Of a stretch of 64,000 nucleotides of DNA, positions 6,252 to 56,272 are shown piece by piece (the stretch's first letter is position 1; each line of letters begins with the position of its first letter). Source of the stretch: a virus (taxonomy: Duplodnaviria; Heunggongvirae; Uroviricota; Caudoviricetes); IMG/VR virus record IMGVR_UViG_3300020048_000033, positions 21,156 through 85,155 of that record; one strand, 5' to 3'. The position numbers and the translations under genes are program-made. The notes beneath the pieces were generated by a model. The model had not been told where the DNA came from, did no database searches, and was given only the letters and a program-made list of their open reading frames with translations.

Positions 6252-6266
6252 TTAAAATAATGCAAA

Positions 6267-6313
6267 AAAGTTTTGAACTTTTCCTGAAAATCCTATATAT
6301 TATATATGTAGGG
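6267..6313 (+). promoter_or_regulatory. conserved phage promoter-like motif, class A (AAAAGTTTTGAACTTTTCCTGAAAATCCTATATATTATATA), copy 1
   Basis: Near-identical ~45-bp intergenic element present 7 times in the window. AT-rich TATATTATATA -10-like end. Here it precedes a roughly 400-nt non-coding tRNA-like region. Confidence 0.55.
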
Positions 6314-7246: not shown

Positions 7247-8475
7247 GATTTTTCTGGTATAGTACCTGCTTTGGCTCAGGTGGAATAATATTGGGTTCGA
7301 ATCCCGAGTACCAGTTTAGAGTTATTATTTAATGTTAATATAACTCAAGGATTGAAATATTCAGTCAGTGAAAGCTGATAGTAATTGGAGTTGTTCACCA
7401 ATTATTGATTTGATAGCCTTCTTCCTTTGGCTAGACTAATCTGAAAATAATTTAAATCGAGTGTTGATTAGTTTCTTAGGGGGATACCCTTTGGATGGGA
7501 TGCAATTGCCCACAACGCTTTATACACGTACATGATAATGAAGTACTTGATGCTAACACATCCTTGATAAGCCTTCGACAGTGTAGAATGAAATCCTATG
7601 CCTCTAGTATGATGGGTGAGCATTGCAGATTAAAGAATTGGATGAGCAGTAATATCGTGATGATGCCAATTTTAGTCGGGAATAAAAGCAATGTATTAAA
7701 GGATGGAAATATAATAATAAATATACTTGACGACTAATCGGATGAGGGAAAGCCACCGCCTGAGACACCCCCAAGACTGATTTTTCCGTGACTAATAAAA
7801 TATTAAACTTAATCGGGTCGTATGATTTGTGTATGGAAACTATACAGAGGAAGTCCTTCGAGAGTCCCGCCCTTATAAAATTGCTAGGGTTAAGTAAAGT
7901 AAAATGGTACGCACGAATCTGGTAGTCACGTTAGAACCCTACCTTTAGTAAGAGTGTAAACAGCTCTGAAGTTTCGTAATGTCGAACATCTGAAATAGAG
8001 ATGGACAAGAAAACTTAAATATAGCTGAGATAAAGAAGGCTTAGAAAACTCCTCGTGTATTGTGGAGAATTGCCGGTTGAGTCTGACCGGATGAAAGTGT
8101 AACTGTTACGAGAGTGACGACGACTAGTATTTTGGTAGATACTAAAATAGTAGCGTAAGAGAAATACACGTACTAATCTTTCATTGGCTGACTGGTTAGT
8201 TTCCGATAATTGCATCTTCCACCCTCTTATAGATGTGATTGTGGTTGCCCTGCGAGAATAGGGTTTTCTTTTTTCTTAAAGTTCTAATATAAAACTTAAA
8301 TTATATTTTCTGAACTATACCCACTCAAAGCTACAAAACGATGAAGAGGGCCGGCTGTCTGTAGATGAAAATGACTGAAGGCTGGCGTAAGGGTATTGGA
8401 TTGCAAACATCGAAGTTCTGGTTTTCTCCGTATACACGGAGGTATTTCTGAGAAATAACCTGCATAATCCAAGTT

Positions 8476-30563: not shown

Positions 30564-30800
30564 ATGAACTTTGTAGAAGCTTTAAAATTAGTAATGCAAG
30601 GAAAAAAAGTAATCTTGAAGAGCGTTCAGGATCAAGTAAATAAAATGGAGCTTAGAGGTCTATTATTTATTAGATTGTCTGACAATAAGGACTGCTTAGT
30701 TGCAGAATCTAAGCAAGGCTATATACAACCTTGGCCCTTTGAAGGTTGTACTAATCTTTTAAACTGGTATATAGCTGAAGATTGGATTGAAGTGGATTGA
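30564..30800 (+). CDS. hypothetical protein
   Basis: 78-aa ORF. Confidence 0.3.
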   Translation: MNFVEALKLVMQGKKVILKSVQDQVNKMELRGLLFIRLSDNKDCLVAESKQGYIQPWPFEGCTNLLNWYIAEDWIEVD

Positions 30801-30809
30801 AGTGGAGTG

Positions 30810-30843
30810 AAAGGTACCGTGGGTTCGAATCCCACCCGCTCCG
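30810..30843 (+). pseudogene. tRNA 3'-half fragment (T-arm GTGGG-TTCGAAT-CCCAC + acceptor strand CCGCTCC)
   Basis: Identical acceptor 3' strand to tRNA-Ser(UGA) at 29694. No 5' half is present. Confidence 0.35.
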
Positions 30844-36831: not shown

Positions 36832-36866
36832 ACTTTTCCTGAATATCCTATATATTATATATGTTA
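36823..36866 (+). promoter_or_regulatory. class A promoter-like motif, copy 4
   Basis: AAAGTTTTGAACTTTTCCTGAATATCCTATATATTATATA between two paralogous genes. Confidence 0.5.
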
Positions 36867-38051: not shown

Positions 38052-38307
38052 TTTCTAATGGGGCTGAGGGGGTAATTCCTCAGCTCCTACTATTACGATT
38101 GCTTGGTGGAATTGGTAGACACACCCCTATTAACTGGGGAGGTAGAAACGTGAAACGTAAAGAACTAAAATTTCTTTGGAGTAATTGACCATAGGAGGTT
38201 TTAGGTGATAACTAAAAACAGTTTCAAATATTTTATTAAGAACTATAGATAACTTAATGGGTATTCCATTTGAGGGTTCGATACCTTCAGCAGTCATTTT
38301 TTGTTTT

Positions 38308-38388
38308 GGCGAGATGGTGTAATTGGTAGCCACGGGGGTCTTAAAAACCCCTCCTTTTAGGGTGGGGGTTCGAGTCCCCTTCTTGCCA
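38308..38388 (+). tRNA. tRNA-Leu (anticodon UAA), class II
   Basis: Acceptor GGCGAGA/TCTTGCC, D-arm GTGTAATTGGTAGCCAC, anticodon stem GGGGT/ACCCC with loop CTTAAAA, variable arm, T-arm GGGGG-TTCGAGT-CCCCT. Confidence 0.7.
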
Positions 38389-38507
38389 TGTTTAATACTT
38401 GGGGCTTTGCTGAAATTGGAAAACAGGTTTGGAGTTTTATCCAGATGGGTGGCACGACTTTCTTTGAATGTCAGTCCAGCTTTACGGTTTCAAATCCCGT
38501 AAGTTTC

Positions 38508-38554
38508 CAAGTATTAATCTTTTGGTCTTCCAGATTTTGGAAGTGGATTGAAAC
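38508..38554 (+). repeat. solitary variant CRISPR repeat unit (GGTCTTCCAGATTTTGGAAGTGGATTGAAAC) with AT-rich promoter-like lead-in
   Basis: Shares the 11-nt type I-C 5'-handle TGGATTGAAAC with the array repeat. The hairpin is replaced by CTTCCA/TGGAAG, preceded by GTATTAATCTTT. Confidence 0.55.
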
Positions 38555-38683
38555 GGCTGAATAAGTCCTGTCCTAATTCTAGGTCAAACCAGAAAAGGTC
38601 GCTATGAAATTAAATCCTAATGATTAGGTAATAGGTTTTTAACAAGTTAAAAGACTCTTAACTAATTTAAAAAGGATAATAAA

Positions 38684-39337
38684 ATGATATATAATTTTGG
38701 TAGAGTGTATGAGAGGGCAATTAGAGAAAGATATTCAGAAGGATTCGATTTAAAAGATTTGGAAGGTTTATCCTCGTTCACCAAAAGATTAGACTATGTT
38801 TCTTCTAAGTTGGCACGTATTGCCGCTGGTAGTAGTAGAATTGTATATGCAGTAGATGAAGAGAAAGTTCTCAAGGTTGCTAAAAACTCAAAAGGGTTAG
38901 CTCAGAACCTTGAGGAAATATCAGTAGGTTCGGATTATATTTCCCCTGATATCTTAGCAAAGGTTTTTGATTCATCTGAGGACGGAAAGTTTCTTGAGAT
39001 GGAAAGGGCAGATAAGATTACAGCAAAAGATTTTGAGAGACTTGTTGGAGTATCCTTAGAAAAAACTACTGAGTATCTCAGATATATTTCTTATGAGGTT
39101 CTTGGTCAACAGAAGAATAGAGGATTCCGTATTTCTAAACCTGAAAATATTGAAGAACTTGATAATAATGAGTTCCTTTGTGATTTAGTAGAGTTGGGTG
39201 GTAGCTGGAACTTCCCTTTGCCGGGCGATTTTTCAAGACTCTCTACCTATGGAAAAGTAATAAGAGATGGAATAGAACAAGTTGTAGTAATTGATTATGG
39301 TTATCGTGGGGATGTAGTTTCTCTATATGGACACTAA
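38684..39337 (+). CDS. hypothetical protein
   Basis: 217-aa ORF. Confidence 0.4.
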   Translation: MIYNFGRVYERAIRERYSEGFDLKDLEGLSSFTKRLDYVSSKLARIAAGSSRIVYAVDEEKVLKVAKNSKGLAQNLEEISVGSDYISPDILAKVFDSSEDGKFLEMERADKITAKDFERLVGVSLEKTTEYLRYISYEVLGQQKNRGFRISKPENIEELDNNEFLCDLVELGGSWNFPLPGDFSRLSTYGKVIRDGIEQVVVIDYGYRGDVVSLYGH

Positions 39338-39354
39338 ACAAGGAAAAGGTCGCT

Positions 39355-39582
39355 ATGAAATTAAAAGAATATTTGTCTGAGCTTAATGCTATGGTAGCAA
39401 ACGACTCTTCCATTCTTGAAATGGAAGTGGTAATGTCTAGTGATTCTGAGGGAAACTCTTTTCATAAAGTTGGATATACCCCAACTATAGGACATTTTTC
39501 CCGAGGGGATTTCCTCCCAAGTTCTCAATTTGAGGAAGAGGAAAGACCTATGACAGATGTTAATTCTATCTGCCTAAACTAA
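39355..39582 (+). CDS. hypothetical protein
   Basis: Start region AAAAGGTCGCTATGAAATTAAA is duplicated at 38586-38608, where a truncated MKLNPND* copy occurs. Confidence 0.3.
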   Translation: MKLKEYLSELNAMVANDSSILEMEVVMSSDSEGNSFHKVGYTPTIGHFSRGDFLPSSQFEEEERPMTDVNSICLN

Positions 39583-42646: not shown

Positions 42647-42853
42647 ATTGTGTACTCTCTTGATAAGAGTTTAAACTTTAAGTTTTAAAACCCTAAAGGG
42701 GTGTAACTAACATATAACTAGAACTTTTTGTCCCCTCCCTACTTTAGGGAGGGTTTTATTTTAAACTTATCTTTGAATATTAATTAAGGTGTTTCTTAGA
42801 AGGTAGCTAATTTATTTTCAATACAACATATATATTTTGTTAATATAGTATCT

Positions 42854-45283
42854 ATGAATTCTATTAAACCTACTTATTTATTTCCTGAGTTAGTGGCACA
42901 CCCTCCATCAAATGACAATCCTGTTAGTCAGTCTTTAGAAGAACACTTACAAGGGACTAATGAATATGCTTTATCCTTTTGTCAAAGTGAAACAGACAAG
43001 GCTTTAGTGTCTCCAATAGCTCTTGGACATGACATTGCAAAAACAACAACTTGGGTTAAAGAACATTTATGTCCTAGCTGTTGGTCTAAAAATAAAGACT
43101 TAAACCGATGTAAAGGGTGTGGATTAAAAAACCCTACTGGAAAGGATAGCCGACAAATATATCATTCACCTTATGGGGTTTTATATATGTTACTTAATTC
43201 TGTAACATCAGAGGGAAAAAAAATATTTGATATAAATCGTCTCAGAACGGAAGAGTGGGTATATTATAATATTGTGGGAGGACACCATGGAGGTTTAATG
43301 GATACTGACACTATTCAACAGAGAGTTCTTGAGATGATGTCAGATCCTAACACCCCAAATATTTTGAAAGAGATAGATTCTTTTGTAAAGTCTACAAATA
43401 TTTCTACTTCTCCAACAATTAAGTTTCCTTATAATAGGGATGATACCTTCTTTGATTTCTTTATAAAAATTAAAGAGGTATTTTCAATTCTTTGTGATGC
43501 TGACTCTTTAGATACTGAGGGACACAGTTCTCCTTCTAAAAAAGATTTTAGAAAACCCCCTAAAATTGAATGGACAAACCTTTTACAATGCTTAGATGAA
43601 TATTATTTAACTCTTTCTTTGGATGAAAACGGTAAACAAAAAAAGAGTAAGTGGAAACAAAAAAAACTTAATAAGCTTAGAAATGAATTAAGAGTGTATT
43701 CCGATAAAATTGCTTCTGCTTTTTCAAGAGGATATTTTTCAATGGAGTTTCCTACAGGGTTTGGTAAAACACTGGCAAGTATTTCTTTTGCTCTTAATCA
43801 TGCAATAAATATTGAAAAGAGAGGTGAAAGACCCATTAAAAGAATTATTTATGTCCTCCCCTTTTTGACAATAACTGCACAGACCACAAATGTACTTAAA
43901 GAGGTTTTTGGTGACGATATTAACATTTTAGAGCATCACACAGGGGCAGAATATGCTCTTAATGGTGATGATAGGAAATCTGAATATGAGCAAGCAACTT
44001 CTGATAAGGATAAAAGAAAAATACTGGCAACAGAGAATTGGGATTACCCTATAATTGTTACCACGGATGTTCAATTTTTTGAATCCGTTATGTCTGCTAA
44101 TAGAGGTTCTTCTCGTAAGATTCATAACATAGCTGATTCTATTGTTATCCTAGATGAAATACAAGTTATCTCTAACTCACTTTGGGCACCCACAATTGAA
44201 ATTCTTAAATCACTTAACAAAGTTTTAAATACTTCTATACTTTTTACTTCTGCTACTATGCCAGCATTTTCTTGGGAAAACCAGAAGTTAAAGTTTGATG
44301 GAGTTACCTCTTTAGTTGAAGATAAACAAACTCTTTATAGAAACAGCGTTCGAGTAAAATACCATGTACTTAACAATCTAAAGCCTCTTACCATTAATGA
44401 ATTAAGTACAAGGATTTTTAAGGAAAAGGGTTCCACTTTATTGGTGCTTAATACTAGGAGAACAGCTTTTGGGGCATATAGAGAACTGTGTAAGTTAAAC
44501 TCTAATAATAAATGGGATAAAATAATTTATTTAAATACCGTATTAAACTCTAAGCATCGTATGAACCTTATTAATTCTATTAAAAAAATACTGAAAGATG
44601 ATAAGTTAAAAATATTGGTTGTATCTACTCAACTGATTGAAGCCGGTGTAGATTTAGATTTTTATAATGTTTTTCGTAAAATAGCCCCATTAGAATCCCT
44701 TATTCAAAGCTCAGGAAGATGCAATAGAGAGTGGAAATATCCTTATGGGAATGTTTACATTTTTGATATTATTGATACTTTTAAGTGTGATCCTTGGTCA
44801 GACAGCTACATAGAGAGAATAGCAATAGTAGTTAATTTACTAAGAAGAACAAACTTTCTTAAATATTTTAGCCCCTTTGATTTAGGTAAATTACATAAGA
44901 GTGATATCTATGAGGAATATCATAAAAAATGCTTTTCTATTATGAGTTCTGATAAAAATAAGGTTCTAACTTCCATAAAAGCTTGCAACTTTAAAACAGC
45001 ATCTAATAATTATAAAATAATAGATTCTGAGACATCAGGGGTTGTAGTACCTTATGGAGACCTAACTTTAGATGAATATGAATATTATAGAAATAAAGAA
45101 ACAATCACAAGGGCAGACCTTAGACGACTTCAACCATATATGGTTTCTTTATTTGAGGGTGACTTAAAGAAGGTAGAAGGGATACAAATTGTAAGGACTG
45201 TAGGGAATTTATTAATGCTCAGTAAAAACCATTTGAATTGTTATAGTGAGGAAACAGGCTTATCTAATTTAATTTTTAATTAG
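42854..45283 (+). CDS. cas3: Cas3 (HD nuclease + SF2 helicase), type I
   Basis: N-terminal HD domain (HPPS...LEEHL...ALGHDIAKTT...GGHHGG), helicase motif I FPTGFGKT, motif II VILDEIQ, motif III TSATMP, C-terminal helicase lobe. 809 aa. Preceded by TTGTTAATATAGT. Confidence 0.85.
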   Translation: MNSIKPTYLFPELVAHPPSNDNPVSQSLEEHLQGTNEYALSFCQSETDKALVSPIALGHDIAKTTTWVKEHLCPSCWSKNKDLNRCKGCGLKNPTGKDSRQIYHSPYGVLYMLLNSVTSEGKKIFDINRLRTEEWVYYNIVGGHHGGLMDTDTIQQRVLEMMSDPNTPNILKEIDSFVKSTNISTSPTIKFPYNRDDTFFDFFIKIKEVFSILCDADSLDTEGHSSPSKKDFRKPPKIEWTNLLQCLDEYYLTLSLDENGKQKKSKWKQKKLNKLRNELRVYSDKIASAFSRGYFSMEFPTGFGKTLASISFALNHAINIEKRGERPIKRIIYVLPFLTITAQTTNVLKEVFGDDINILEHHTGAEYALNGDDRKSEYEQATSDKDKRKILATENWDYPIIVTTDVQFFESVMSANRGSSRKIHNIADSIVILDEIQVISNSLWAPTIEILKSLNKVLNTSILFTSATMPAFSWENQKLKFDGVTSLVEDKQTLYRNSVRVKYHVLNNLKPLTINELSTRIFKEKGSTLLVLNTRRTAFGAYRELCKLNSNNKWDKIIYLNTVLNSKHRMNLINSIKKILKDDKLKILVVSTQLIEAGVDLDFYNVFRKIAPLESLIQSSGRCNREWKYPYGNVYIFDIIDTFKCDPWSDSYIERIAIVVNLLRRTNFLKYFSPFDLGKLHKSDIYEEYHKKCFSIMSSDKNKVLTSIKACNFKTASNNYKIIDSETSGVVVPYGDLTLDEYEYYRNKETITRADLRRLQPYMVSLFEGDLKKVEGIQIVRTVGNLLMLSKNHLNCYSEETGLSNLIFN

Positions 45284-45335
45284 CCCCTTATTTATCTATA
45301 TTTCTTGTTCCAGAAACTGCTAAAATAATTAGTGA

Positions 45336-45382
45336 AAAAGTTTTGAACTTTTCCTGAATATCCTATATATTATATAGGTAGA
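45336..45382 (+). promoter_or_regulatory. class A promoter-like motif, copy 5 (between cas3 and cas5c)
   Basis: AAAAAGTTTTGAACTTTTCCTGAATATCCTATATATTATATAGG. Confidence 0.5.
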
Positions 45383-45481: not shown

Positions 45482-46156
45482 ATGAATGCAATATCCTCAA
45501 AATATGGTGCTCTTAAATCAAGGGTAGAGCTTGTGGCTTATGGAGAAAACGCTTGCTTTAAGGACCCAGTATGGAAAACAGAGGGTCTTACCTACCCATG
45601 TATCACCCCATCGGCTTCAAGAGCTATACTAGAGTCGGTGTTTTGGCATCCTCCGATGTATTATGATATTGTGTCAATAGAGGTTTTAAAGCCTATAATA
45701 AAAACACTGACCTGTGTAGTTGAACCCAATACCTATGGTATAGACGGAGTTTTGAGACACTATATGTATCTAAGAGATGTATCCTATCATATTGTTGCTG
45801 ATATAGTTATGAAGAATGGTGTCACAATAGATGAAAATAAAAATGCAATAAAGTATATGAGTATTTTTAATAGGAGACTACAGAAAGGTCAAACTTTTAA
45901 GGCTCCTTTCCTCGGAATAAGTCAATGCTTATGTGATGTTAGGGAATATGTTCCTCTTGAGGATATCCCTACAAAAGAAAATTATTATATAGGAAATATG
46001 CTATTAGAGATGAATCATAAAAAATCTGGGGTAGAGCCAATATTTATGGATGAGGCTCAAATAAAAAATGGCGTACTTTGTAATGGGGAACAGTCCCTTG
46101 AAGACGCCATACTAGAAAAAACATCTTATAGAAAAGAGGAAGTGTATATTGCGTGA
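45482..46156 (+). CDS. cas5c: Cas5c (Cas5d) crRNA-processing subunit, type I-C
   Basis: Family-conserved blocks VELVAYGENACFKDP, ASRAILESVFWHP, HYMYLRDVSYHIVADI, FKAPFLGISQC align with Cas5d. Confidence 0.8.
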   Translation: MNAISSKYGALKSRVELVAYGENACFKDPVWKTEGLTYPCITPSASRAILESVFWHPPMYYDIVSIEVLKPIIKTLTCVVEPNTYGIDGVLRHYMYLRDVSYHIVADIVMKNGVTIDENKNAIKYMSIFNRRLQKGQTFKAPFLGISQCLCDVREYVPLEDIPTKENYYIGNMLLEMNHKKSGVEPIFMDEAQIKNGVLCNGEQSLEDAILEKTSYRKEEVYIA

Positions 46157-48128
46157 ACTTTATGATTTTTACAAGGTGTATTCCACTACTGAAACTTTCA
46201 AGGAAAATTACGACAGTAGTATTTGGTTTGATAGAGGTACGCCCTCAGCAATTATTGATATTGATAAGAACCATAAGACTACCTTCCTACCACTTGGAGG
46301 AGACTCAGCTAAACTTCATCGTAGAGAATTCTTCCCGGGGAAAGGTACAAGATTTTCATTAGATGCTACTAAAAGGGTTTTAGGTGGTATTGAGGTTAAT
46401 GACAAGGACGGTTCTTTTACTTTTGAAGAAAACTTTGGGTCGGAAGTTTTATCTCAGGTAACAGCTATATTAAAGTATAAAAATTATTTCTTAGATAATC
46501 TTTCTCTTTTTACAAAAAAAGAAGTTTTAGTAGCACAGGAAATTTTTGATGCAATACTTTCAATATATGTAAGTCCTAAGTGTAAAGATTTTTCTGATAT
46601 TAAGGTTTCAAAAACCTTAAAGAAACTAAGAAAAGATTTCTGCACCCATTTTAAGGATGATAAAAATGTTGAAGGTAAACTTATAGGTATCTCTTATCAA
46701 GGAGAGCTAATTCTTGAAAATAAAGTAATTTCCAAGATTGTAGAGAGTTTTAAAGAGTATGAGTTGGGTCTTATAAATAAGAAAACTCCTTTTAGAAATT
46801 GTCCCATTTGTAAAAAAAACACAAACCTTTATAATATTAATTCCTATGGGGCTATAAGAAAAAGTTTACTAGGTGGAAGTATTAATGGGTGTTTTCCCAT
46901 TAGTTACAATGAACCACAATTTGAGTCTTATGGAATGAAAGGTAACTTAAACTCATCAATTTGTTATGATTGTGGAAAAAAAATTGTAAGGTCTTTAGAA
47001 ATACTTTGTGGGATAGACAAAATATATGTCCCCTTCAAGAACTCTAAAGGTGAAGACAAGTTAAAGCCCTCATTTAAGGAGACTCGTTTCAGATTGGATG
47101 TCCGTGGCGCAAATGAATATGCTATTCTGGTATATGCGACAGATGCTAATGGGAGAGTCTTGGATATGACTAAAGAAATATCCTTAGATACTGTTAGAGA
47201 AGTTGATTTGAAATTAGATGAGTCCTCTATTATTTCTTCCTATAAAAGTTTAAATGATAGTAGTTCTTCCAGTGAAGCAATAATCCCACTTAATATTACA
47301 GCCAATATTCTTGTGGTAGCATCAAATAGTGCAAGAATGGTAATAAGAGATCATTGTTGTATTAATCTTAATAGCTTAAGGAGTTCCATTTCTCGTTGGA
47401 GGGAAGCTACCCAAGGACAAACCTTTGAGGGATATGTTGATGCTAAAGGAAACCAAAAATGGAGGGCTATAAAATATTATCCTTCACTTAATACTATCTT
47501 AGAAAACTTAGGTGCTTTTGGTAAAAATGATAAAGTTTATTATTCTGTAATAGATACAGTTCAACAAATGGTGTTTCGTGGAATAACTGAAAATATTTCT
47601 TTTAAGGATACAATACTTAATAACATTCAATCCTCTTTCTTTACAAGAGGGGATAGACAGTATGAAATATCTAAGGATTCATTCTGTGTTGTACGTTTGG
47701 TTTATAATGCGGGTAAGAATAAGGAGAGTTTGATGAGTCCGAGTCTTGATGAGACTAATGAAAAAATGGGGTATCTTTTTGGGAGAGCTTTTTCTATAGC
47801 ATCTTCTATTATGTATCATGTAAATGATAAAGATACTTATGGTATTGATTCTCTTTATGATCAATGTTTGTCACAACCTAAATTGGCTATAGAAAACATA
47901 ACCAGTTCTTTAATGTATTATGTATCTAAGGGTAAAAAAGACCCTGATATAGGATTTTTTATTGTATCCCTTCACAATAAGTATATGGAACTTATTTCTA
48001 AAGCATTGCAGGTGGGAGTTCCTATCATAATGAAACAGGACGATAAACTACTTTTTATTGGTGGAATGTGTTCACAAAATATGTATAATAAAACTGGTGG
48101 AAAAACCACTAAAGTAAAGGAAGACTAA
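46149..48128 (+). CDS. cas8c: Cas8c (Csd1) large subunit, type I-C
   Basis: 659-aa ORF overlapping the cas5c stop by 8 nt, in the position and with the size expected for Cas8c. Internal CxxC...CxxC zinc-finger-like pairs. Confidence 0.65.
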   Translation: MRELYDFYKVYSTTETFKENYDSSIWFDRGTPSAIIDIDKNHKTTFLPLGGDSAKLHRREFFPGKGTRFSLDATKRVLGGIEVNDKDGSFTFEENFGSEVLSQVTAILKYKNYFLDNLSLFTKKEVLVAQEIFDAILSIYVSPKCKDFSDIKVSKTLKKLRKDFCTHFKDDKNVEGKLIGISYQGELILENKVISKIVESFKEYELGLINKKTPFRNCPICKKNTNLYNINSYGAIRKSLLGGSINGCFPISYNEPQFESYGMKGNLNSSICYDCGKKIVRSLEILCGIDKIYVPFKNSKGEDKLKPSFKETRFRLDVRGANEYAILVYATDANGRVLDMTKEISLDTVREVDLKLDESSIISSYKSLNDSSSSSEAIIPLNITANILVVASNSARMVIRDHCCINLNSLRSSISRWREATQGQTFEGYVDAKGNQKWRAIKYYPSLNTILENLGAFGKNDKVYYSVIDTVQQMVFRGITENISFKDTILNNIQSSFFTRGDRQYEISKDSFCVVRLVYNAGKNKESLMSPSLDETNEKMGYLFGRAFSIASSIMYHVNDKDTYGIDSLYDQCLSQPKLAIENITSSLMYYVSKGKKDPDIGFFIVSLHNKYMELISKALQVGVPIIMKQDDKLLFIGGMCSQNMYNKTGGKTTKVKED

Positions 48129-48129
48129 A

Positions 48130-49191
48130 ATGGCAAAAGCAAAAGCAAAAGAACCTGAACAGGAAGTTGAAATACTTAAAGATGAAGAGTTTTTCGCCAC
48201 CAATGGAGAACTTGTAAACAACCGGTATGATATTATGATTTTAGTGGAAGCTATTAACTCAAATCCAAGTGGTGACCCCGGTAATGGAGGGAAACCTCGT
48301 ATAGACCATAACGGTCGTGGAGAATGGGAGAATACTTCTTTAATTTATAAAATAAAGACAAGGATAGAAATCCTTGCAGAACAGAAAGGTTGGAAAGGTT
48401 TTAATCGCCTTGTAAAAAAAGGTAGTATTATTTCTGAGGGTTTGAAGCAATTCTCAAAATATGGCTCAGATATAAATCTTCAACAGCGCAAAGTGGTAGA
48501 TACCTTTTTTGATATAAGGATGTTCGGAGGTATGCTCAGAACAAAGGATGGAAAATCTTCTACTCCAGAGGACAAAACTTCCGAAATTAAAAAAGAAGAT
48601 TCTGGTAAAAAAACTGTAGAAAAGGGTGGACAGGGTTGCGGTACCTTAACTGGTTCAATCCATTTCTGCAAAGGTGTTTCTATTGATCCAGTGATTGTAA
48701 AAACTACCCGTATTACTCGGGTATGTGCTTCAAATCCTGAAAGGCTAAGAGGAATCAGAAAAGAGGATTATACTGAGATGGGTGAAAACTCTGTAGTTCA
48801 TTATGGTCTTTATCAATTTAAGGGTAGTATCGATCCTATTCAGTCCCAAAAAAGCTTTTTTACTAAAAAAGATTGCAAAATCTTTTTTAGAAGTTGTGCC
48901 TCTTTTACAAAGCACGATGCAAGTTCTATTAGAGGGGAGCTTAATATTCGTAGAGTTATTATCTGGAAACATGATAGTATCTTAGGTAGTACTCCTAAAA
49001 ATCAGAACTTTAATAGACTTAAAATTGCCCTCAAGGATGGAATTGATTCTCCTGAAAAGTATGAGGACTATAATATAGCTCTCGATCTTGAGAACCTTAG
49101 CCCCCATCTTAGTGTCATTGATATCAATGATAAAGAGATTGCGGAAGCTTGGGATGATGAAACTCTTGACTTTGATAAAAACTTTATGTAA
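48130..49191 (+). CDS. cas7c: Cas7c (Csd2) backbone subunit, type I-C
   Basis: NRYDIMILVEAINSNPSGDPGNGGKPRIDH matches the Cas7/Csd2 N-terminal glycine-rich signature. 353 aa. Confidence 0.85.
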   Translation: MAKAKAKEPEQEVEILKDEEFFATNGELVNNRYDIMILVEAINSNPSGDPGNGGKPRIDHNGRGEWENTSLIYKIKTRIEILAEQKGWKGFNRLVKKGSIISEGLKQFSKYGSDINLQQRKVVDTFFDIRMFGGMLRTKDGKSSTPEDKTSEIKKEDSGKKTVEKGGQGCGTLTGSIHFCKGVSIDPVIVKTTRITRVCASNPERLRGIRKEDYTEMGENSVVHYGLYQFKGSIDPIQSQKSFFTKKDCKIFFRSCASFTKHDASSIRGELNIRRVIIWKHDSILGSTPKNQNFNRLKIALKDGIDSPEKYEDYNIALDLENLSPHLSVIDINDKEIAEAWDDETLDFDKNFM

Positions 49192-49389: not shown

Positions 49390-50956
49390 GTCACTCCCCG
49401 TGCGGGGGTGTGGATTGAAACTTTTGAGGTAGCACTGACAGAACCAATTAGAGATGTCACTCCCCGTGCGGGGGTGTGGATTGAAACCTTGCTAATACAT
49501 TCAACTTTTCAACATCAAGTGTGTCACTCCCCGTGCGGGGGTGTGGATTGAAACAAGCTGTCCAACTTTGCCCTCATCCTTTGTTGGTCGTCACTCCCCG
49601 TGCGGGGGTGTGGATTGAAACTTGGGTGGTATTGGTTCAGCAATCGGCGCTTTGTGTCACTCCCCGTGCGGGGTGTGGATTGAAACTAAAAAGAAATGGA
49701 AAACCCGTTGACACCACAGAGTCACTCCCCGTGCGGGGGTGTGGATTGAAACTTTCAGGAACAAGACCCACAAGGTACGATTGGAAAAGTCACTCCCCGT
49801 GCGGGGGTGTGGATTGAAACTAACTCTCACCTTTTTTCAGCCGGTTTCACAATTGGTCACTCCCCGTGCGGGGTGTGGATTGAAACTCATACAGTGTTGC
49901 TCTGGTTGCACCTCTACACACAGTCACTCCCCGTGCGGGGGTGTGGATTGAAACAAGGAACTGAAAAATGACTTTCGAGATTTGAGGGCGTCACTCCCCG
50001 TGCGGGGGTGTGGATTGAAACCTTGGGGCAAAGTATTTCCCTTGTAGCGATTGAAAGTCACTCCCCGTGCGGGGGTGTGGATTGAAACGTGTATCACTCG
50101 AAAGTACAACATGGTTGTGTAAGTCACTCCCCGTGCGGGGGTGTGGATTGAAACTGAAATGGGTGGACTCGGGGAAATACTCACTAAAGTCACTCCCCGT
50201 GCGGGGGTGTGGATTGAAACGAGTAAGTAGCAGGACAGGGGTTTTCTTTTGTGTAAGTCACTCCCCGTGCGGGGGGTGTGGATTGAAACGAGTTTGACAC
50301 CGACCTAGTTACCCTTGAACTCACGTCACTCCCCGTGCGGGGGTGTGGATTGAAACAACTCGAATCCCCGTTTGTATTTGGATTTTAGCAAGTCACTCCC
50401 CGTGCGGGAGTGTGGATTGAAACTACTCAGTTGATGGACTCTATTGGCAAGGTACTCGTCACTCCCCGTGCGGGAGTGTGAGAGCTGAGTAATAAAACTA
50501 AGTGTTAATATAATATTAGTACTGGTCTTCCTAATTTTGGAAGTGGATTGAAACCCTTTAAGTTCCCCATGCATCATACAAATAAACATGTCACTCCCCG
50601 TGCGGGGGTGTGGATTGAAACCACTACAAAGACGGGCGAGTCAGACAGAATCCGGTGTCACTCCCCGTGCGGGGGTGTGGATTGAAACTAAGTAGTTATT
50701 GGATTCCGCTTAGAATCATTAATGTCACTCTCCGTGCGGGAGTGTGGATTGAAACCGAATATCAGGTATGGATATCATCGAGGCATTAGTGTCACTCCCC
50801 GTGCGGGGGTGGGGATTGAAACCAAGCCGTTGTTCAAGCTTTGCAGGATTCCAAGGTGTCACTCCCCGTGCGGGAGGTGTGGATTGAAACATGACTGGTT
50901 TAGCTGTAATTAATGGGTCGAAGAGTCACTCCCCGTGCGGGAGTGTGGATTGAAAT
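49390..50956 (+). CRISPR. type I-C CRISPR array, 23 repeats (GTCACTCCCCGTGCGGGGGTGTGGATTGAAAC, 31-33 nt) and 22 spacers of 33-36 nt; repeat 17 (50448-50554) interrupted by a 73-bp promoter + variant-repeat insertion
   Basis: Repeat starts at 49390, 49456, 49523, 49590, 49656, 49721, 49789, 49856, 49923, 49990, 50057, 50123, 50189, 50257, 50325, 50392, 50448 (split), 50590, 50657, 50724, 50791, 50858, 50925. Terminal ATTGAAAC is typical of I-C repeats. Distal repeats accumulate variants (GGGAGTG, CTCCG, TGGGG, terminal GAAAT). Confidence 0.9.
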
Positions 50957-51020: not shown

Positions 51021-51054
51021 AGATGTGTAAGTGAAATTAAAATTAGGGTTAATA

Positions 51055-51420
51055 TAATATCAGTATTGGTCTTCTAGAAATTAGAAGTGGATTGAAACAG
51101 TACACAAGTCTACAAGAGTCTATTCTTCATTGTCACTTCCCGTGCGGAAGTGTGGAATTAAAATTAGTATTAATATAATATTAGTACTGGTCTTCCAGAA
51201 TTTGGAAGTGGATTGAAACGAGGCAAATACTCAACTTATATCTGGGACTGTGCGTCACTCCCAGTGGTGGAGTGTGGATTGAAACGATGCCATGGTCAAC
51301 AAAATGGATTTAGACCTGAGTCACTCCCCCCGTGAGGGAGTGTGGATTTTAATACGATATAATGAATCAGATAGGGTGCTAATGATAAGTCACTCCCGTG
51401 CGGGAGTGACGTTAATCAAA
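51055..51420 (+). CRISPR. two degenerate mini-arrays, each starting with a promoter-like element and a variant repeat, followed by spacers and decayed canonical repeats
   Basis: Unit A: promoter TTAGGGTTAATATAATATCAGTA, variant repeat at 51078-51108, spacer, degenerate repeat GTCACTTCCCGTGCGGAAGTGTGGAATTAAAAT at 51142-51174. Unit B: promoter TTAGTATTAATATAATATTAGTA, variant repeat at 51189-51219, then degenerate repeats at 51254, 51320 and 51389. Confidence 0.65.
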
Positions 51421-53097: not shown

Positions 53098-53373
53098 ATG
53101 CTTGAGTTTTTAAAAAAGAAAAAGAAAATTATACCTGTGAGAAGTGGAGCCTATTGTAGATGTAGTATATGCACTCATGTAGGATATGCGTATGGCATTG
53201 CTTCAAGTGAAGTAGGGGTGAGTCATCCAAGTTGCGCTGTATGTGGATTTAACATGGGACTTGTTCAAATTCAACCCTTTCAAGAGTGTACATGCAAATC
53301 CTGCAAGTTGAAAAAGAAACTTAGGGTTAATATAAGTATCTGTCTTCCAGAAATTGGAAGTGGATTGAAATGA
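53098..53373 (+). CDS. hypothetical Cys-rich protein (3' end runs into a solitary repeat unit; boundary uncertain)
   Basis: Multiple CxxC pairs. The ORF stop lies inside the variant repeat at 53343-53371. Confidence 0.2.
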   Translation: MLEFLKKKKKIIPVRSGAYCRCSICTHVGYAYGIASSEVGVSHPSCAVCGFNMGLVQIQPFQECTCKSCKLKKKLRVNISICLPEIGSGLK

Positions 53374-53476
53374 TAGAGCAAGAAGAACTTGGGCAGAAGA
53401 ATTAATGAACAAGGATATTGTGGTTGCACATTATTAATGAACGTGAGTCACTCCTGTGCGGGAGTGAGGGTTGAAA
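53322..53476 (+). repeat. solitary mini-array: promoter-like TTAGGGTTAATATAAGTATCT + variant repeat (53343-53371) + 74-nt spacer-like segment + degenerate canonical repeat (53446-53476, GTCACTCCTGTGCGGGAGTGAGGGTTGAAAT)
   Basis: Direct sequence match to the array repeat 5'-handle and hairpin. Confidence 0.55.
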
Positions 53477-53588
53477 TAGCACAGCGACTGGACAGTAAAG
53501 AAACTGGACCGGCACAAACCAATCTGATGCTCCTTACAAAAAATGTAACCGTCTGTCCCGAGTATGTTAGATTAAAAGGAATTACCGT

Positions 53589-54090: not shown

Positions 54091-54309
54091 ATGAAAGAAA
54101 CTTTGACAACCATTGATAATTTTAAGTCTAAGCATATTGGAAATCTTGAAGTAAGTTTTTTAGTTACCAAGGAAAATACAAGTATACGAATTGTGCACTT
54201 GGCTACTGGTGATATAGTAAATAAAAGTTTCACCAAAGAATCTATCAATACAGGAAGTATAAACGTTATTCAAGTATGGTTTGATGAGATTGAAAAAAAG
54301 TTGGAATAG
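54091..54309 (+). CDS. hypothetical protein
   Basis: 72-aa ORF preceded by a GTTAATATAAT motif. Confidence 0.3.
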   Translation: MKETLTTIDNFKSKHIGNLEVSFLVTKENTSIRIVHLATGDIVNKSFTKESINTGSINVIQVWFDEIEKKLE

Positions 54310-54508
54310 ATTAATGGGGATGACGTAGGGTTCGATCTTAAGTGAAGTAACAGGATGCAAATGCACTAGAAAAAACGTCTTGAGTAGCTTAAGAGACTCG
54401 GGGGCAGTTCCCGACATCTCCAAATAGGGTATGATGAAAATTGTCAGATAAAAACTGATGTGGTAAACATGGAACGCAAAACGTGCTCCGTCATTAATAA
54501 TAAAACTT

Positions 54509-54556
54509 AAGGTAATATTAGTACGGGTCTTCCAAAAATTGGAAGTGGATTGAAAT
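54509..54556 (+). repeat. solitary variant CRISPR repeat unit with promoter-like lead-in (TAAGGTAATATTAGTA + GGTCTTCCAAAAATTGGAAGTGGATTGAAAT)
   Basis: Same hairpin/handle architecture as the variant repeats in the mini-arrays. No downstream repeat. Confidence 0.5.
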
Positions 54557-54658
54557 AATGATAATAATACCCATGAAATTGAATGGTATAGACATCACAA
54601 ACTGTATCTTGAAAATTTAAAACTTAAGATGACAAATACTAAAGAAGAGGAATGACAA

Positions 54659-55150
54659 ATGACCCGAGATGAAATACTTGCTAAAAAGTGTGATGAGAAG
54701 TATGAAGATTTGATAAAGGTAAACTCAGCAACCTGCTGGGTAGTAGATACAAATAGAATAGAAATTAAAGAATATGCAGTAATGGGGTATGGAAGAACCT
54801 GTGTAGGAATAACCACCTCAACTAGTTCTGTTTCCAATAAGGTAACAGAGTCAAAAGTGTATGAATATCTTTTTACTGTTATTTCACTGGAAGAAGAAAC
54901 CTTTGGTCTTGAGAGTTTTGTTAGCTACGATAAAATTTTTCTCAATAAGAAATTTGCACTTATTCAATTACTGAATTCAATGATAGCAAATCTTACGTAT
55001 GAATCAAACTCAGATAAATTGTCAATTCTAACTAAGATAGGACATAGTAAACTTAACGTACTTGATGAACTTAGAGAGATTGACGACTTTGATAAAGAAG
55101 GGTTTGATACCTATTTTTATGAAAAATTAAATATAATAGAAACTGTATAA
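54659..55150 (+). CDS. hypothetical protein
   Basis: 163-aa ORF. Confidence 0.4.
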   Translation: MTRDEILAKKCDEKYEDLIKVNSATCWVVDTNRIEIKEYAVMGYGRTCVGITTSTSSVSNKVTESKVYEYLFTVISLEEETFGLESFVSYDKIFLNKKFALIQLLNSMIANLTYESNSDKLSILTKIGHSKLNVLDELREIDDFDKEGFDTYFYEKLNIIETV

Positions 55151-56217: not shown

Positions 56218-56230
56218 AATAATTCGTTAG

Positions 56231-56272
56231 AAAGTTTTGAACTTTTCCTGAAAATCCTATATATTATATAAG
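56231..56272 (+). promoter_or_regulatory. class A promoter-like motif, copy 6
   Basis: AATTCGTTAGAAAGTTTTGAACTTTTCCTGAAAATCCTATATATTATATA. Confidence 0.5.

What the first reader, a model, noticed from the sequence alone, without database searches (positions are those of the whole stretch)
38508..38620. Solitary promoter + variant-repeat unit far from the array (38.5 kb), followed by a duplicated gene-start fragment
GGTCTTCCAGATTTTGGAAGTGGATTGAAAC has the same variant hairpin and exact 5'-handle as the mini-array repeats. It sits alone 11 kb upstream of cas3. It is followed ~35 nt later by AAAAGGTCGCTATGAAATTAAA, a duplicate of the RBS/start of gene 39355 that gives a truncated MKLNPND* ORF. 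It would yield an RNA beginning with a Cascade-binding handle but without a downstream repeat. That could be a crRNA-like regulatory guide, a decoy, or a recombination scar. Two further solitary units are at 53322-53476 and 54509-54556.
Basis: partly seen in the sequence, partly recalled or inferred. Interest (0 to 1): 0.75.

Follow-up and report, generated by a model that had tools for sequence, protein, structure and literature searches.

The report
Orphan CRISPR repeat in a phage

Summary
The repeat is real. GGTCTTCCAGATTTTGGAAGTGGATTGAAAC at 38524-38554 is one of six copies of a variant repeat: a 6-bp AT-rich hairpin plus the exact 11-nt type I-C handle. An independent assembly confirms both junctions. 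The 23-nt duplication is also real, and it brackets one inserted gene.

Three details of the finding are wrong. There is no recognisable promoter (7/11 to the phage motif, which is background level). cas3 lies 4.3 kb away, not 11 kb. The 53.3 kb unit still has a degenerate second repeat.

The cas genes are cas3-cas5c-cas8c-cas7, with no adaptation genes after cas7. Three variant units head promoter-driven mini-arrays, and three are dispersed. The two truly solitary ones (38.5 and 54.5 kb) bracket a lineage-specific, compositionally ameliorated CRISPR island that relatives lack.

In all copies, substitutions avoid the stem and handle, whereas terminal standard repeats decay. This argues for maintenance as a Cas5c cleavage and handle module.

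The 38.5 kb unit lacks a promoter, a 3' hairpin and any detectable target, unlike a textbook bacterial I-C crlRNA found as a comparator.

Best reading: an orphaned mini-array first repeat that makes a handle-tagged RNA by read-through. It is possibly crlRNA-like and possibly only a remnant.

The parts
38524..38554 (+). Solitary variant type I-C repeat unit (u38524). Hairpin CTTCCA-GATTT-TGGAAG at 38527-38543; 11-nt handle TGGATTGAAAC at 38544-38554.
   Evidence: independent assembly.
38555..38591 (+). Spacer-like sequence after the handle. No second repeat, no significant 3' hairpin or terminator, no detectable target.
38592..38614 (+). Copy 1 of an exact 23-nt direct repeat (RBS plus ATGAAATTAAA). 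It opens the 7-codon ORF MKLNPND* (38604-38627).
39343..39365 (+). Copy 2 of the 23-nt direct repeat: the true RBS and start of gene 39355-39582. Together the two copies bracket gene 38684-39337.
38684..39337 (+). The gene enclosed by the 23-nt repeats (phrog_4301). It has distant homologues in jumbo phages, some annotated as protein kinase.
38307..38389 (+). tRNA-Leu(UAA), upstream of the unit and a likely source of read-through transcription.
38392..38517 (+). tRNA-like structured element closed by a 13-bp stem. Neither ARAGORN nor Rfam calls it.
42854..45283 (+). cas3 (HD nuclease motifs present, plus helicase), preceded by the GTTAATATAGT promoter motif at 42839.
45482..46156 (+). cas5c/cas5d, the type I-C pre-crRNA endonuclease.
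46149..48128 (+). cas8c/csd1. Very divergent: the nearest database relative is 25% identical.
48130..49191 (+). cas7/csd2. It is followed directly by the array, with no cas4, cas1 or cas2 in the canonical position.
49390..50485 (+). Main array: 17 standard repeats (GTCACTCCCCGTGCGGGGGTGTGGATTGAAAC) plus a degenerate terminal repeat.
50504..50956 (+). Mini-array 1: promoter GTTAATATAAT, variant repeat 50524-50554, then 6 standard repeats.
51048..51163 (+). Mini-array 2: promoter, variant repeat 51068-51098 (compensatory stem CTTCTA/TAGAAG), one spacer, degenerate standard repeat.
51169..51417 (+). Mini-array 3: promoter, variant repeat 51189-51219, then standard repeats that decay towards the end.
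53326..53477 (+). Decayed mini-array: promoter motif 10/11 at altered spacing, variant repeat 53341-53371, a 75-nt gap, degenerate standard repeat 53447-53477.
54509..54556 (+). Second truly solitary variant unit (54526-54556), with a degenerate promoter (8/11) and no second repeat. It lies at the right edge of the island.

Best explanation
The 38.5 kb element is an orphan copy of this phage's own 'first-repeat module'. That module is a 6-bp AT-rich hairpin followed by the canonical 11-nt type I-C handle. In three mini-arrays it sits directly behind a phage promoter and supplies the 5' handle of the first crRNA.

The copy at 38.5 kb has lost, or never had, both the promoter and the downstream repeat. 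It sits 15 nt after a tRNA-Leu/tRNA-like block, at the left edge of the lineage-specific CRISPR-Cas island.

Most likely mechanism (inferred, not shown):
1. The unit is transcribed by read-through from the tRNA block.
2. The phage Cas5c cuts at the 3' base of the hairpin.
3. The downstream RNA then begins with UGGAUUGAAAC and can nucleate Cas5c/Cas7. This gives a crRNA-like RNA without a 3' repeat, the architecture reported for SRU-derived crlRNAs of bacterial I-C systems.

What that RNA targets, if anything, is unknown. The 23-nt duplicated gene start downstream is a separate event: the footprint of the insertion of gene 38684-39337 between the unit and gene 39355.
For: Identity:
- Exact handle, and the same hairpin geometry as the array repeats (stem ends in G immediately before TGGATTGAAAC).
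- The cas genes are type I-C. Cas5c is above the NCBIfam cut-off and matches solved pre-crRNA endonucleases at E=3e-22. The Cas3 HD motifs are present.

Maintenance:
- Across the six copies the only variable columns are loop positions, the first base, the last base (C/T) and one compensatory stem pair. Four stem pairs and handle positions 1-10 are invariant.
- By contrast, the terminal standard repeats in the same locus have mutated handles (GTGAGAGC, GGAATTAAAA, GGATTTTAAT, GGGTTGAAAT).
- All three dispersed units are of the variant type, although standard repeats outnumber variant repeats roughly 9:1.
- In the decayed mini-array at 53.3 kb the variant unit is intact while its standard partner is degenerate.
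- The island has the phage's own G+C content (0.30-0.37), so it is old and an unselected copy should have decayed.

Precedent:
- I-C SRUs yield 48-50 nt crlRNAs with an 11-nt handle cut by Cas5c and no canonical second repeat (bioRxiv 10.1101/2024.12.27.630466).
- A bacterial example with the same stem type was recovered here (L002).

Not an artefact.
Against: - No promoter motif (7/11, background level) and no sigma-70-like site just upstream.
- No significant structure or terminator downstream (z = -0.6). The bacterial comparator L002 has a strong 3' hairpin (z = -4.2) and a 16/17 self-target next to its promoter.
- No target for the spacer-like 35 nt in the roughly 75 kb of the phage available, in IMG/VR, in INPHARED or in 120 I-C loci.
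- Absent at the syntenic site in the nearest relative.
- It differs from u51189 by one base, so a recent copy or gene conversion could explain its intactness without selection.
- The neighbouring 23-nt duplication shows the site is recombinationally active.
- No expression data exist.
Confidence: 0.45

Rival explanations
1. Non-functional remnant or recombination scar. A former mini-array (promoter, variant repeat, spacer, standard repeat) at the edge of the CRISPR island lost its promoter and second repeat through rearrangements. The unit is intact only because the event, or a gene conversion from the array copies, is recent.
For: - No promoter, no second repeat, no 3' hairpin and no target.
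- It sits exactly at a synteny breakpoint and is missing from the closest relative.
- An exact 23-nt duplication 38 nt downstream and an HNH endonuclease gene 1 kb away point to local rearrangement.
- It differs by only 1 nt from u51189.
- Promoter quality declines in the dispersed units (11, 11 and 10 of 11, against 10 with altered spacing, 8 and 7).
Against: - Substitutions in all dispersed copies avoid the stem and handle. Terminal standard repeats of the same locus do decay in the handle.
- Only variant units are found as orphans, never standard ones.
- The homology with the other copies starts within about 2 nt of the unit's 5' end, which is odd for a random breakpoint.
- The island is compositionally old.
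Confidence: 0.33
2. Racr-like decoy. The solitary units are transcribed as repeat mimics that soak up the Cas5c/Cas7 of a host or competitor type I-C system, since all I-C systems share this handle. They would form aberrant complexes, as shown for RacrIF1 and RacrIC1.
For: - Viral SRUs placed just downstream of promoters are the defining picture of Racrs, and a I-C Racr has been validated (PMC10651486).
- u53342 and u54527 do have phage-type promoters.
- The standard repeat is closest to I-C repeats found mostly in Lachnospiraceae MAGs, so a host I-C system with the same handle is plausible.
Against: - The phage encodes its own Cas5c and Cas7, which use the identical handle, so a decoy would poison its own system.
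- The same variant unit heads normal mini-arrays with 33-35 nt spacers, so it acts as a productive first repeat.
- The 38.5 kb unit has no promoter.
- No acr-like neighbours could be recognised.
Confidence: 0.1
3. Island-end repeats. The two truly solitary units (38524 and 54526, in direct orientation) are the recombination ends through which the 16-kb CRISPR-Cas island was gained or can be lost. They need not have an RNA function.
For: Compared with relatives L132 and L130, gene order is shared up to g37512 plus tRNA-Leu and resumes at g55169. The region between them has no counterpart. It holds the unit, the kinase-like gene, HNH, SprT, cas3-5-8-7, the arrays and u53342, and it is flanked by u38524 and u54527.
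Against: - The relatives are distant (55-60% identity in the helicase), and the right boundary is only located to within about 0.9 kb.
- The island is fully ameliorated in G+C.
- The two units differ at 4 of 31 positions, which is poor substrate for homologous recombination.
- No island-less junction was seen.
Confidence: 0.1

Closest known systems
SRU-derived crRNA-like RNAs (crlRNAs: CreR, CreA and the 'CRISIS' regulators) of bacterial type I-C systems
   Same: A solitary repeat-like unit with a hairpin and the conserved 11-nt handle. Cas5c is expected to cut it 3' of the hairpin. There is no canonical second repeat. It is encoded in a genome that also encodes the matching Cascade (the L002 example).
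   Different: Known crlRNAs have their own promoter, a 3' hairpin that sets a 48-50 nt product, and a partly complementary PAM-flanked target at a nearby promoter. The 38.5 kb unit shows none of these. Also, the system here is phage-encoded rather than chromosomal.
Viral solitary repeat units / RNA anti-CRISPRs (Racrs, e.g. RacrIC1)
   Same: A single CRISPR repeat mimic in a phage genome, away from any array, with conserved hairpin and handle.
   Different: Racr-bearing viruses are described as lacking cas genes, and their SRUs sit just downstream of a promoter. This phage has a full I-C interference module and arrays, and the 38.5 kb unit has no recognisable promoter.
Viral mini-arrays and Cracr arrays (viral crlRNA arrays)
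   Same: Short promoter-driven arrays in a phage. The three mini-arrays at 50.5-51.4 kb fit this picture, and the solitary unit is the same module as their first repeat.
   Different: Those elements use host Cas proteins and host-identical repeats. Here the first repeat is a phage-specific hairpin variant that forms no array in the collections scanned (no hit in IMG/VR, two solitary hits in JGI metagenomes), and the Cas proteins are the phage's own.
CRISPR-Cas systems of large phages that lack adaptation modules
   Same: A large tRNA-rich phage (contig of at least 143 kb) with cas3-cas5-cas8c-cas7 plus an array and no cas1, cas2 or cas4 at the locus.
   Different: The features of interest here are dispersed orphan first-repeat units and promoter-fused variant repeats. 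I did not find either described in the papers I read.

Membership tests
Type I-C CRISPR repeat-derived unit | The 11-nt 5' handle (U)GGAUUGAAAC immediately 3' of a stem-loop. | tested here: met
   Exact TGGATTGAAAC follows a 6-bp stem with a 5-nt loop. The geometry matches the array repeats.
Type I-C CRISPR repeat-derived unit | A cognate Cas5c processing endonuclease and Cascade genes in the same genome. | tested here: met
   cas3, cas5c, cas8c and cas7 lie at 42.9-49.2 kb. Cas5c scores 108.8 bits against an 85-bit cut-off and matches PDB 8g9t at E=3e-22.
crlRNA (CreR/CreA/CRISIS-type regulatory RNA) | Its own promoter, or demonstrated transcription. | tested here: not met
   7/11 to the phage promoter motif, which is background. 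No sigma-70-like site directly upstream. Read-through from tRNA-Leu is possible but untested.
crlRNA (CreR/CreA/CRISIS-type regulatory RNA) | A psi-spacer partly complementary (PAM-proximal) to a promoter of cas or associated genes. | tested here: not met
   No match above shuffled controls in the window plus about 10 kb, with a TTC PAM or with any PAM. The rest of the phage genome and the host are not available. The comparator L002 shows a 16/17 match.
crlRNA (CreR/CreA/CRISIS-type regulatory RNA) | A 3' hairpin or psi-repeat that defines the 3' end. | tested here: not met
   No standard repeat downstream (p about 0.94). The downstream fold has z = -0.6, against z = -4.2 in L002.
Racr (RNA anti-CRISPR) | A solitary repeat unit in a virus or MGE that mimics a CRISPR repeat. 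| tested here: met
Racr (RNA anti-CRISPR) | A promoter within about 250 bp upstream, and no associated cas genes. | tested here: not met
   No promoter motif. The cas operon is 4.3 kb downstream in the same genome.
Racr (RNA anti-CRISPR) | Inhibits CRISPR interference by sequestering Cas proteins. | not testable with these tools
   This needs plaque or transformation assays and pull-downs.
CRISPR mini-array | At least two repeats flanking a spacer of normal length. | tested here: not met
   There is no second repeat after u38524 or u54527. u53342 has one, but after a 75-nt gap.

The most novel reading that the evidence does not exclude
The phage uses a dedicated, phage-specific 'launch module' (AT-rich Cas5c hairpin plus I-C handle) at three dispersed sites as well as at the head of mini-arrays. 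There it would convert read-through transcripts or mRNA leaders into RNAs loaded onto the phage's own Cascade. That would make a virus-encoded crlRNA regulon, serviced by virus-encoded Cas proteins, which represses host or competitor genes without cleavage. The two outermost modules might also serve as ends of a mobilisable CRISPR island.
Probability: 0.15. Interest if true: 0.7.

Novelty: new variant of a known kind. Interest (0 to 1): 0.45.

Why it matters
Solitary repeat units in viruses are currently read as tools that exploit or poison host Cas proteins (Racrs, Cracrs). Regulatory crlRNAs, in turn, are known from cellular CRISPR loci. In this phage both ingredients are viral: a complete, very divergent I-C interference module and dispersed orphan repeat units of a phage-specific hairpin type.

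If the units are expressed and loaded, this would be a virus running its own Cascade-based regulatory RNAs. It would also show that a mini-array can evolve into an SRU by losing its 3' repeat while keeping the handle-donating repeat.

If they are only remnants, they still record how phage mini-arrays are built (a phage promoter fused directly to a repeat) and how they turn over. The variant hairpin is also a natural test of what Cas5c needs for cleavage: structure and handle, rather than stem sequence.

Tried and rejected
1. Self-targeting or autoregulation. I ran full-length ungapped matches, TTC-PAM seed matches and PAM-free seed matches of all psi-spacers against the window plus about 10 kb. 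Nothing exceeded shuffled controls. An unfiltered blastn-short run gave only 8-14 nt chance hits.

2. Targets elsewhere:
- IMG/VR exact seed patterns for the three psi-spacers: 0 hits.
- INPHARED blastn: only chance hits for the SRU region and only repeat-based hits for the arrays.
- 120 bacterial I-C loci: nothing.

3. Relatives carrying the unit:
- The variant and standard repeat patterns gave 0 hits in IMG/VR.
- The gene next to the unit, Cas7 and the helicase have no close relatives in IMG/VR.
- The nearest Cas8c relative is 25% identical.
- Three helicase relatives were fetched (L130, L132, L133); none has a handle or unit.

4. Assembly break as evidence of heterogeneity. I first thought the Logan contig L001 starting at GTGGATTGAAAC marked a repeat-induced graph branch. 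I rejected this. L134 overlaps L001 by 26 nt and runs through the unit, and a similar short-overlap break occurs at an unremarkable site (36832-36851). These are coverage gaps.

5. A decayed second repeat hidden in the duplicated RBS (GTCGCT...GAAATTAAAT). Local alignment to the standard repeat is at background level.

6. CreT-like toxin reading of the MKLNPND* mini-ORF. It has no rare codons and no CreA-type target, and it is explained by the 23-nt duplication.

7. Rfam. Nothing significant at 38380-38700 or 54250-54700.

8. Three 'phage' records with I-C Cas7 (MT836291, MT836695, MT838203). The two that carry arrays (MT836291, MT838203) have ordinary ones without variant first repeats; MT836695 shows only a single repeat at its contig end.

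9. Host identification by repeat. The repeat family is too widespread to be decisive. The closest subtype is mostly in Lachnospiraceae MAGs, and there is no exact match.

10. Walking along the source contig.

Full report
CONTEXT

The window is a piece of a large phage genome.
- Almost all ORFs are on the + strand, there are 28 tRNA genes, and G+C is 35%.
- The source contigs are 143 kb (JGI) and 164 kb.
- It encodes a minimal type I-C interference module: cas3 42854-45283, cas5c 45482-46156, cas8c 46149-48128 and cas7 48130-49191 (Pfam; NCBIfam).
- Cas5c passes its curated cut-off and matches solved pre-crRNA endonucleases at E=3e-22. The Cas3 N-terminus keeps the H, HD, H, HH and D motifs.
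- cas7 is followed directly by the array. No cas4, cas1 or cas2 sits in the canonical place.
- The proteins are very divergent: the best non-self Cas8c hit is 25% identical.

THE REPEAT LANDSCAPE

The main array (49390-50485) has 17 standard repeats, GTCACTCCCCGTGCGGGGGTGTGGATTGAAAC, plus a decayed terminal one.

Three mini-arrays follow, starting at 50504, 51048 and 51169. Each begins with the motif GTTAATATAAT. Nine bases later comes a variant repeat, GGTCTTCCnnnnnTGGAAGTGGATTGAAAC, then a spacer of 33-35 nt and standard repeats.

GTTAATATAAT is a genuine phage promoter class.
- It recurs in intergenic positions in front of genes and tRNAs, including cas3 at 42839.
- It is conserved at the same place upstream of the helicase gene in relatives whose G+C is 50-55%.

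The variant repeat keeps the geometry of the standard one. The stem ends in G directly before the 11-nt handle UGGAUUGAAAC, but the stem sequence is entirely different and AT-rich.

The predicted transcription start lies 3-5 nt before the variant repeat. The repeat's only job in a mini-array would therefore be to let Cas5c create the 5' handle of the first crRNA (inference).

The variant repeat forms no array in the public collections scanned. There were 0 hits in IMG/VR and two unrelated solitary hits in the JGI metagenomes.

CHECKING THE OBSERVATION

What holds:
- The unit at 38524-38554 is exact, and the family has six members against 0 expected.
- Two independent Logan contigs reproduce it and both of its junctions.
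- The 23-nt duplication (38592-38614 and 39343-39365) is exact, and the first copy opens MKLNPND*.

What needs correcting:
- The promoter motif scores 7/11 upstream of this unit, which is background. The AGTATTAA string belongs to a 13-bp stem closing a tRNA-like element at 38392-38517, directly after tRNA-Leu(UAA).
- cas3 is 4.3 kb away. It is the array that lies 10.8 kb away.
- The 53.3 kb unit retains a degenerate standard repeat at 53447-53477 after a 75-nt gap. Only the 38.5 and 54.5 kb units are truly solitary.

EVIDENCE THAT THE UNIT IS MAINTAINED

- In the alignment of the six units, variable columns are confined to the loop, the first base, the last base (C/T, a known natural I-C variation) and one compensatory pair (C-G to U-A in u51068). 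Four stem pairs and handle positions 1-10 never vary.
- In the same locus the terminal standard repeats, whose handles are not used, have clearly decayed handles.
- All three dispersed units are of the variant type, although standard repeats are about nine times more numerous.
- At 53.3 kb the variant unit is intact while its standard partner is degenerate.
- The island has the phage's own base composition, so it is not a recent import.
- Together this suggests that the handle-donating unit is kept while the 3' repeat is dispensable. That is the architecture reported for I-C SRU-derived crlRNAs: 48-50 nt, an 11-nt handle cut by Cas5c, and a 3' end in a hairpin loop (bioRxiv 10.1101/2024.12.27.630466).

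EVIDENCE AGAINST A DEDICATED RNA GENE AT 38.5 KB

- There is no promoter, no significant downstream structure (z = -0.6) and no second repeat.
- No target was found for the handle-proximal 35 nt in any of these:
  - the roughly 75 kb of the phage I could read;
  - IMG/VR;
  - INPHARED;
  - 120 bacterial I-C loci.
- A bacterial comparator recovered by the metagenome scan (L002) shows what a working I-C crlRNA looks like:
  - its own sigma-70-type promoter;
  - a solitary unit with the same CTTC...GAAG stem type;
  - a psi-spacer matching 16/17 a TTT-flanked site 100 nt upstream, next to the promoter;
  - a strong 3' hairpin (z = -4.2);
  - a position about 170 nt upstream of cas3.
- The 38.5 kb unit has only the first half of that design.
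- Expression is still plausible, because it lies 15 nt behind a tRNA/tRNA-like block on the coding strand. This is inference.

GENOMIC PLACEMENT

The nearest relative by helicase (L132, 60% identity, G+C 35%) shares the genes up to g37512, a tRNA-Leu (interrupted there by a roughly 330-nt insert) and a tRNA-like element. After that it diverges, with no unit.

In L130 the order is helicase, then a g37512 homologue, about 2 kb of unrelated genes, a g55169 homologue, PTH2 and DNA polymerase A.

Window 38.1-55.1 kb has no counterpart in these relatives. That stretch holds:
- the unit;
- a kinase-like gene;
- the HNH and SprT-like genes;
- the cas operon and all the arrays;
- u53342 and u54527.

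The two truly solitary units, in direct orientation, therefore bracket the lineage-specific island. The left boundary is tight: the unit starts 16 nt after the tRNA-like element, the last feature with a counterpart in L132. The right boundary is only located to within about 0.9 kb. This could mean island-end recombination sites, or simply that mini-arrays once flanked the cas genes.

THE DUPLICATED GENE START

The 23-nt repeats bracket exactly one gene, 38684-39337 (phrog_4301). It has distant homologues in jumbo phages, some annotated as protein kinase. An HNH endonuclease gene lies just downstream.

The simplest reading is that a gene cassette inserted between the unit and gene 39355, duplicating the ribosome-binding site and the first four codons. 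The 7-codon ORF is a by-product. Before the insertion, the handle would have been about 50 nt upstream of the start of gene 39355.

VERDICT

The element is a bona fide solitary type I-C repeat unit, of the same phage-specific variant type that heads the mini-arrays.

- I favour, at about 0.45, that it is a maintained Cas5c-cleavage/handle module. It would give a crRNA-like, 3'-repeat-less RNA through read-through transcription.
- A plain remnant of a mini-array is nearly as likely (about 0.33).
- A Racr-type decoy (about 0.1) fits poorly, because the phage's own Cascade uses the same handle.
- Island-end repeats (about 0.1) remain possible and are not exclusive of the other readings.

It is a new variant of a known kind (viral SRU / crlRNA) in an unusual setting: a phage with its own Cascade.

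Noticed in passing
window 7334-7440: The promoter motif GTTAATATAAC is followed after 4 nt by GGATTGAAAT, with no 5' hairpin. The predicted transcription start therefore falls inside the handle, which suggests a possible processing-independent handle. A 9-bp hairpin (UAAUUGG...CCAAUUA) follows within about 50 nt of the handle, which resembles I-C crlRNA architecture. It sits just after a tRNA-like fragment at about 7255-7318. No target was found.
   Followed up: partly
window 6262-6300, 45330-45370, 56224-56264: Three copies of a roughly 41-nt element, AAAAAGTTTTGAACTTTTCCTGAAAATCCTATATATTATATA, which looks like a canonical sigma-70 promoter (TTGAAC, 17 nt, TATATT). One copy lies between cas3 and cas5c. 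cas3 (GTTAATATAGT motif) and cas5c-cas8c-cas7 may therefore be driven by different promoter classes.
   Followed up: no
window 34266, 42839, 51436, 54066, 59480 and others; L130 9984, L131 1613, L133 9987: GTTAATATAAT/GT is a recurrent intergenic promoter motif. It is conserved upstream of the helicase gene in relatives with very different G+C (35% against 50-55%), which suggests a phage-specific transcription signal.
   Followed up: partly
window 30783-30813: A tandem TGGATTGAAG TGGATTGAAG TGGAGTGAAAG, each unit 2 mismatches from the 11-nt I-C handle, at the end of ORF 30564-30800. A tRNA 3'-half-like sequence (GGTACCGTGGGTTCGAATCCCACC) follows immediately.
   Followed up: no
window 38392-38517 and 54315-54424: Two elements of about 110-125 nt, each with an acceptor-like closing stem and a T-arm-like hairpin, lie upstream of the two truly solitary units (15 nt and 100 nt away). 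Neither is called by ARAGORN or reaches Rfam thresholds (tRNA 12.7 bits; tmRNA T-arm 15.9 bits).
   Followed up: partly
L132 4570-4980: In the closest relative, the tRNA-Leu(UAA) gene at the syntenic position is split by a roughly 330-nt insert in the anticodon region, which looks like a group I-type intron. The window's tRNA-Leu (38307-38389) is uninterrupted.
   Followed up: no
L002 428-640 (ERZ1033729 contig): A bacterial type I-C locus has a solitary unit, GTCTTCtataataagGAAGTGGATTGAAAA, upstream of cas3. Its first 17 spacer-like nt match 16/17 a TTT-flanked site beside its own promoter, and a strong hairpin follows. This is an apparent autoregulatory crlRNA next to a divergent HTH gene.
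   Followed up: partly
window 38604-38614, 39355-39365, 54573-54583: ATGAAATTRAA occurs only three times in the window: the two duplicated gene starts, and 17 nt downstream of the 54.5 kb solitary unit. This is not significant once the duplication is discounted (expected 0.72).
   Followed up: partly
window 42854-43150 (Cas3 N-terminus): The Cas3 HD domain carries a Cys-rich insert (CPSCWSKNKDLNRCKGCG) between HD motifs II and III. This may be a zinc ribbon, which as far as I recall is not typical of I-C Cas3.
   Followed up: no
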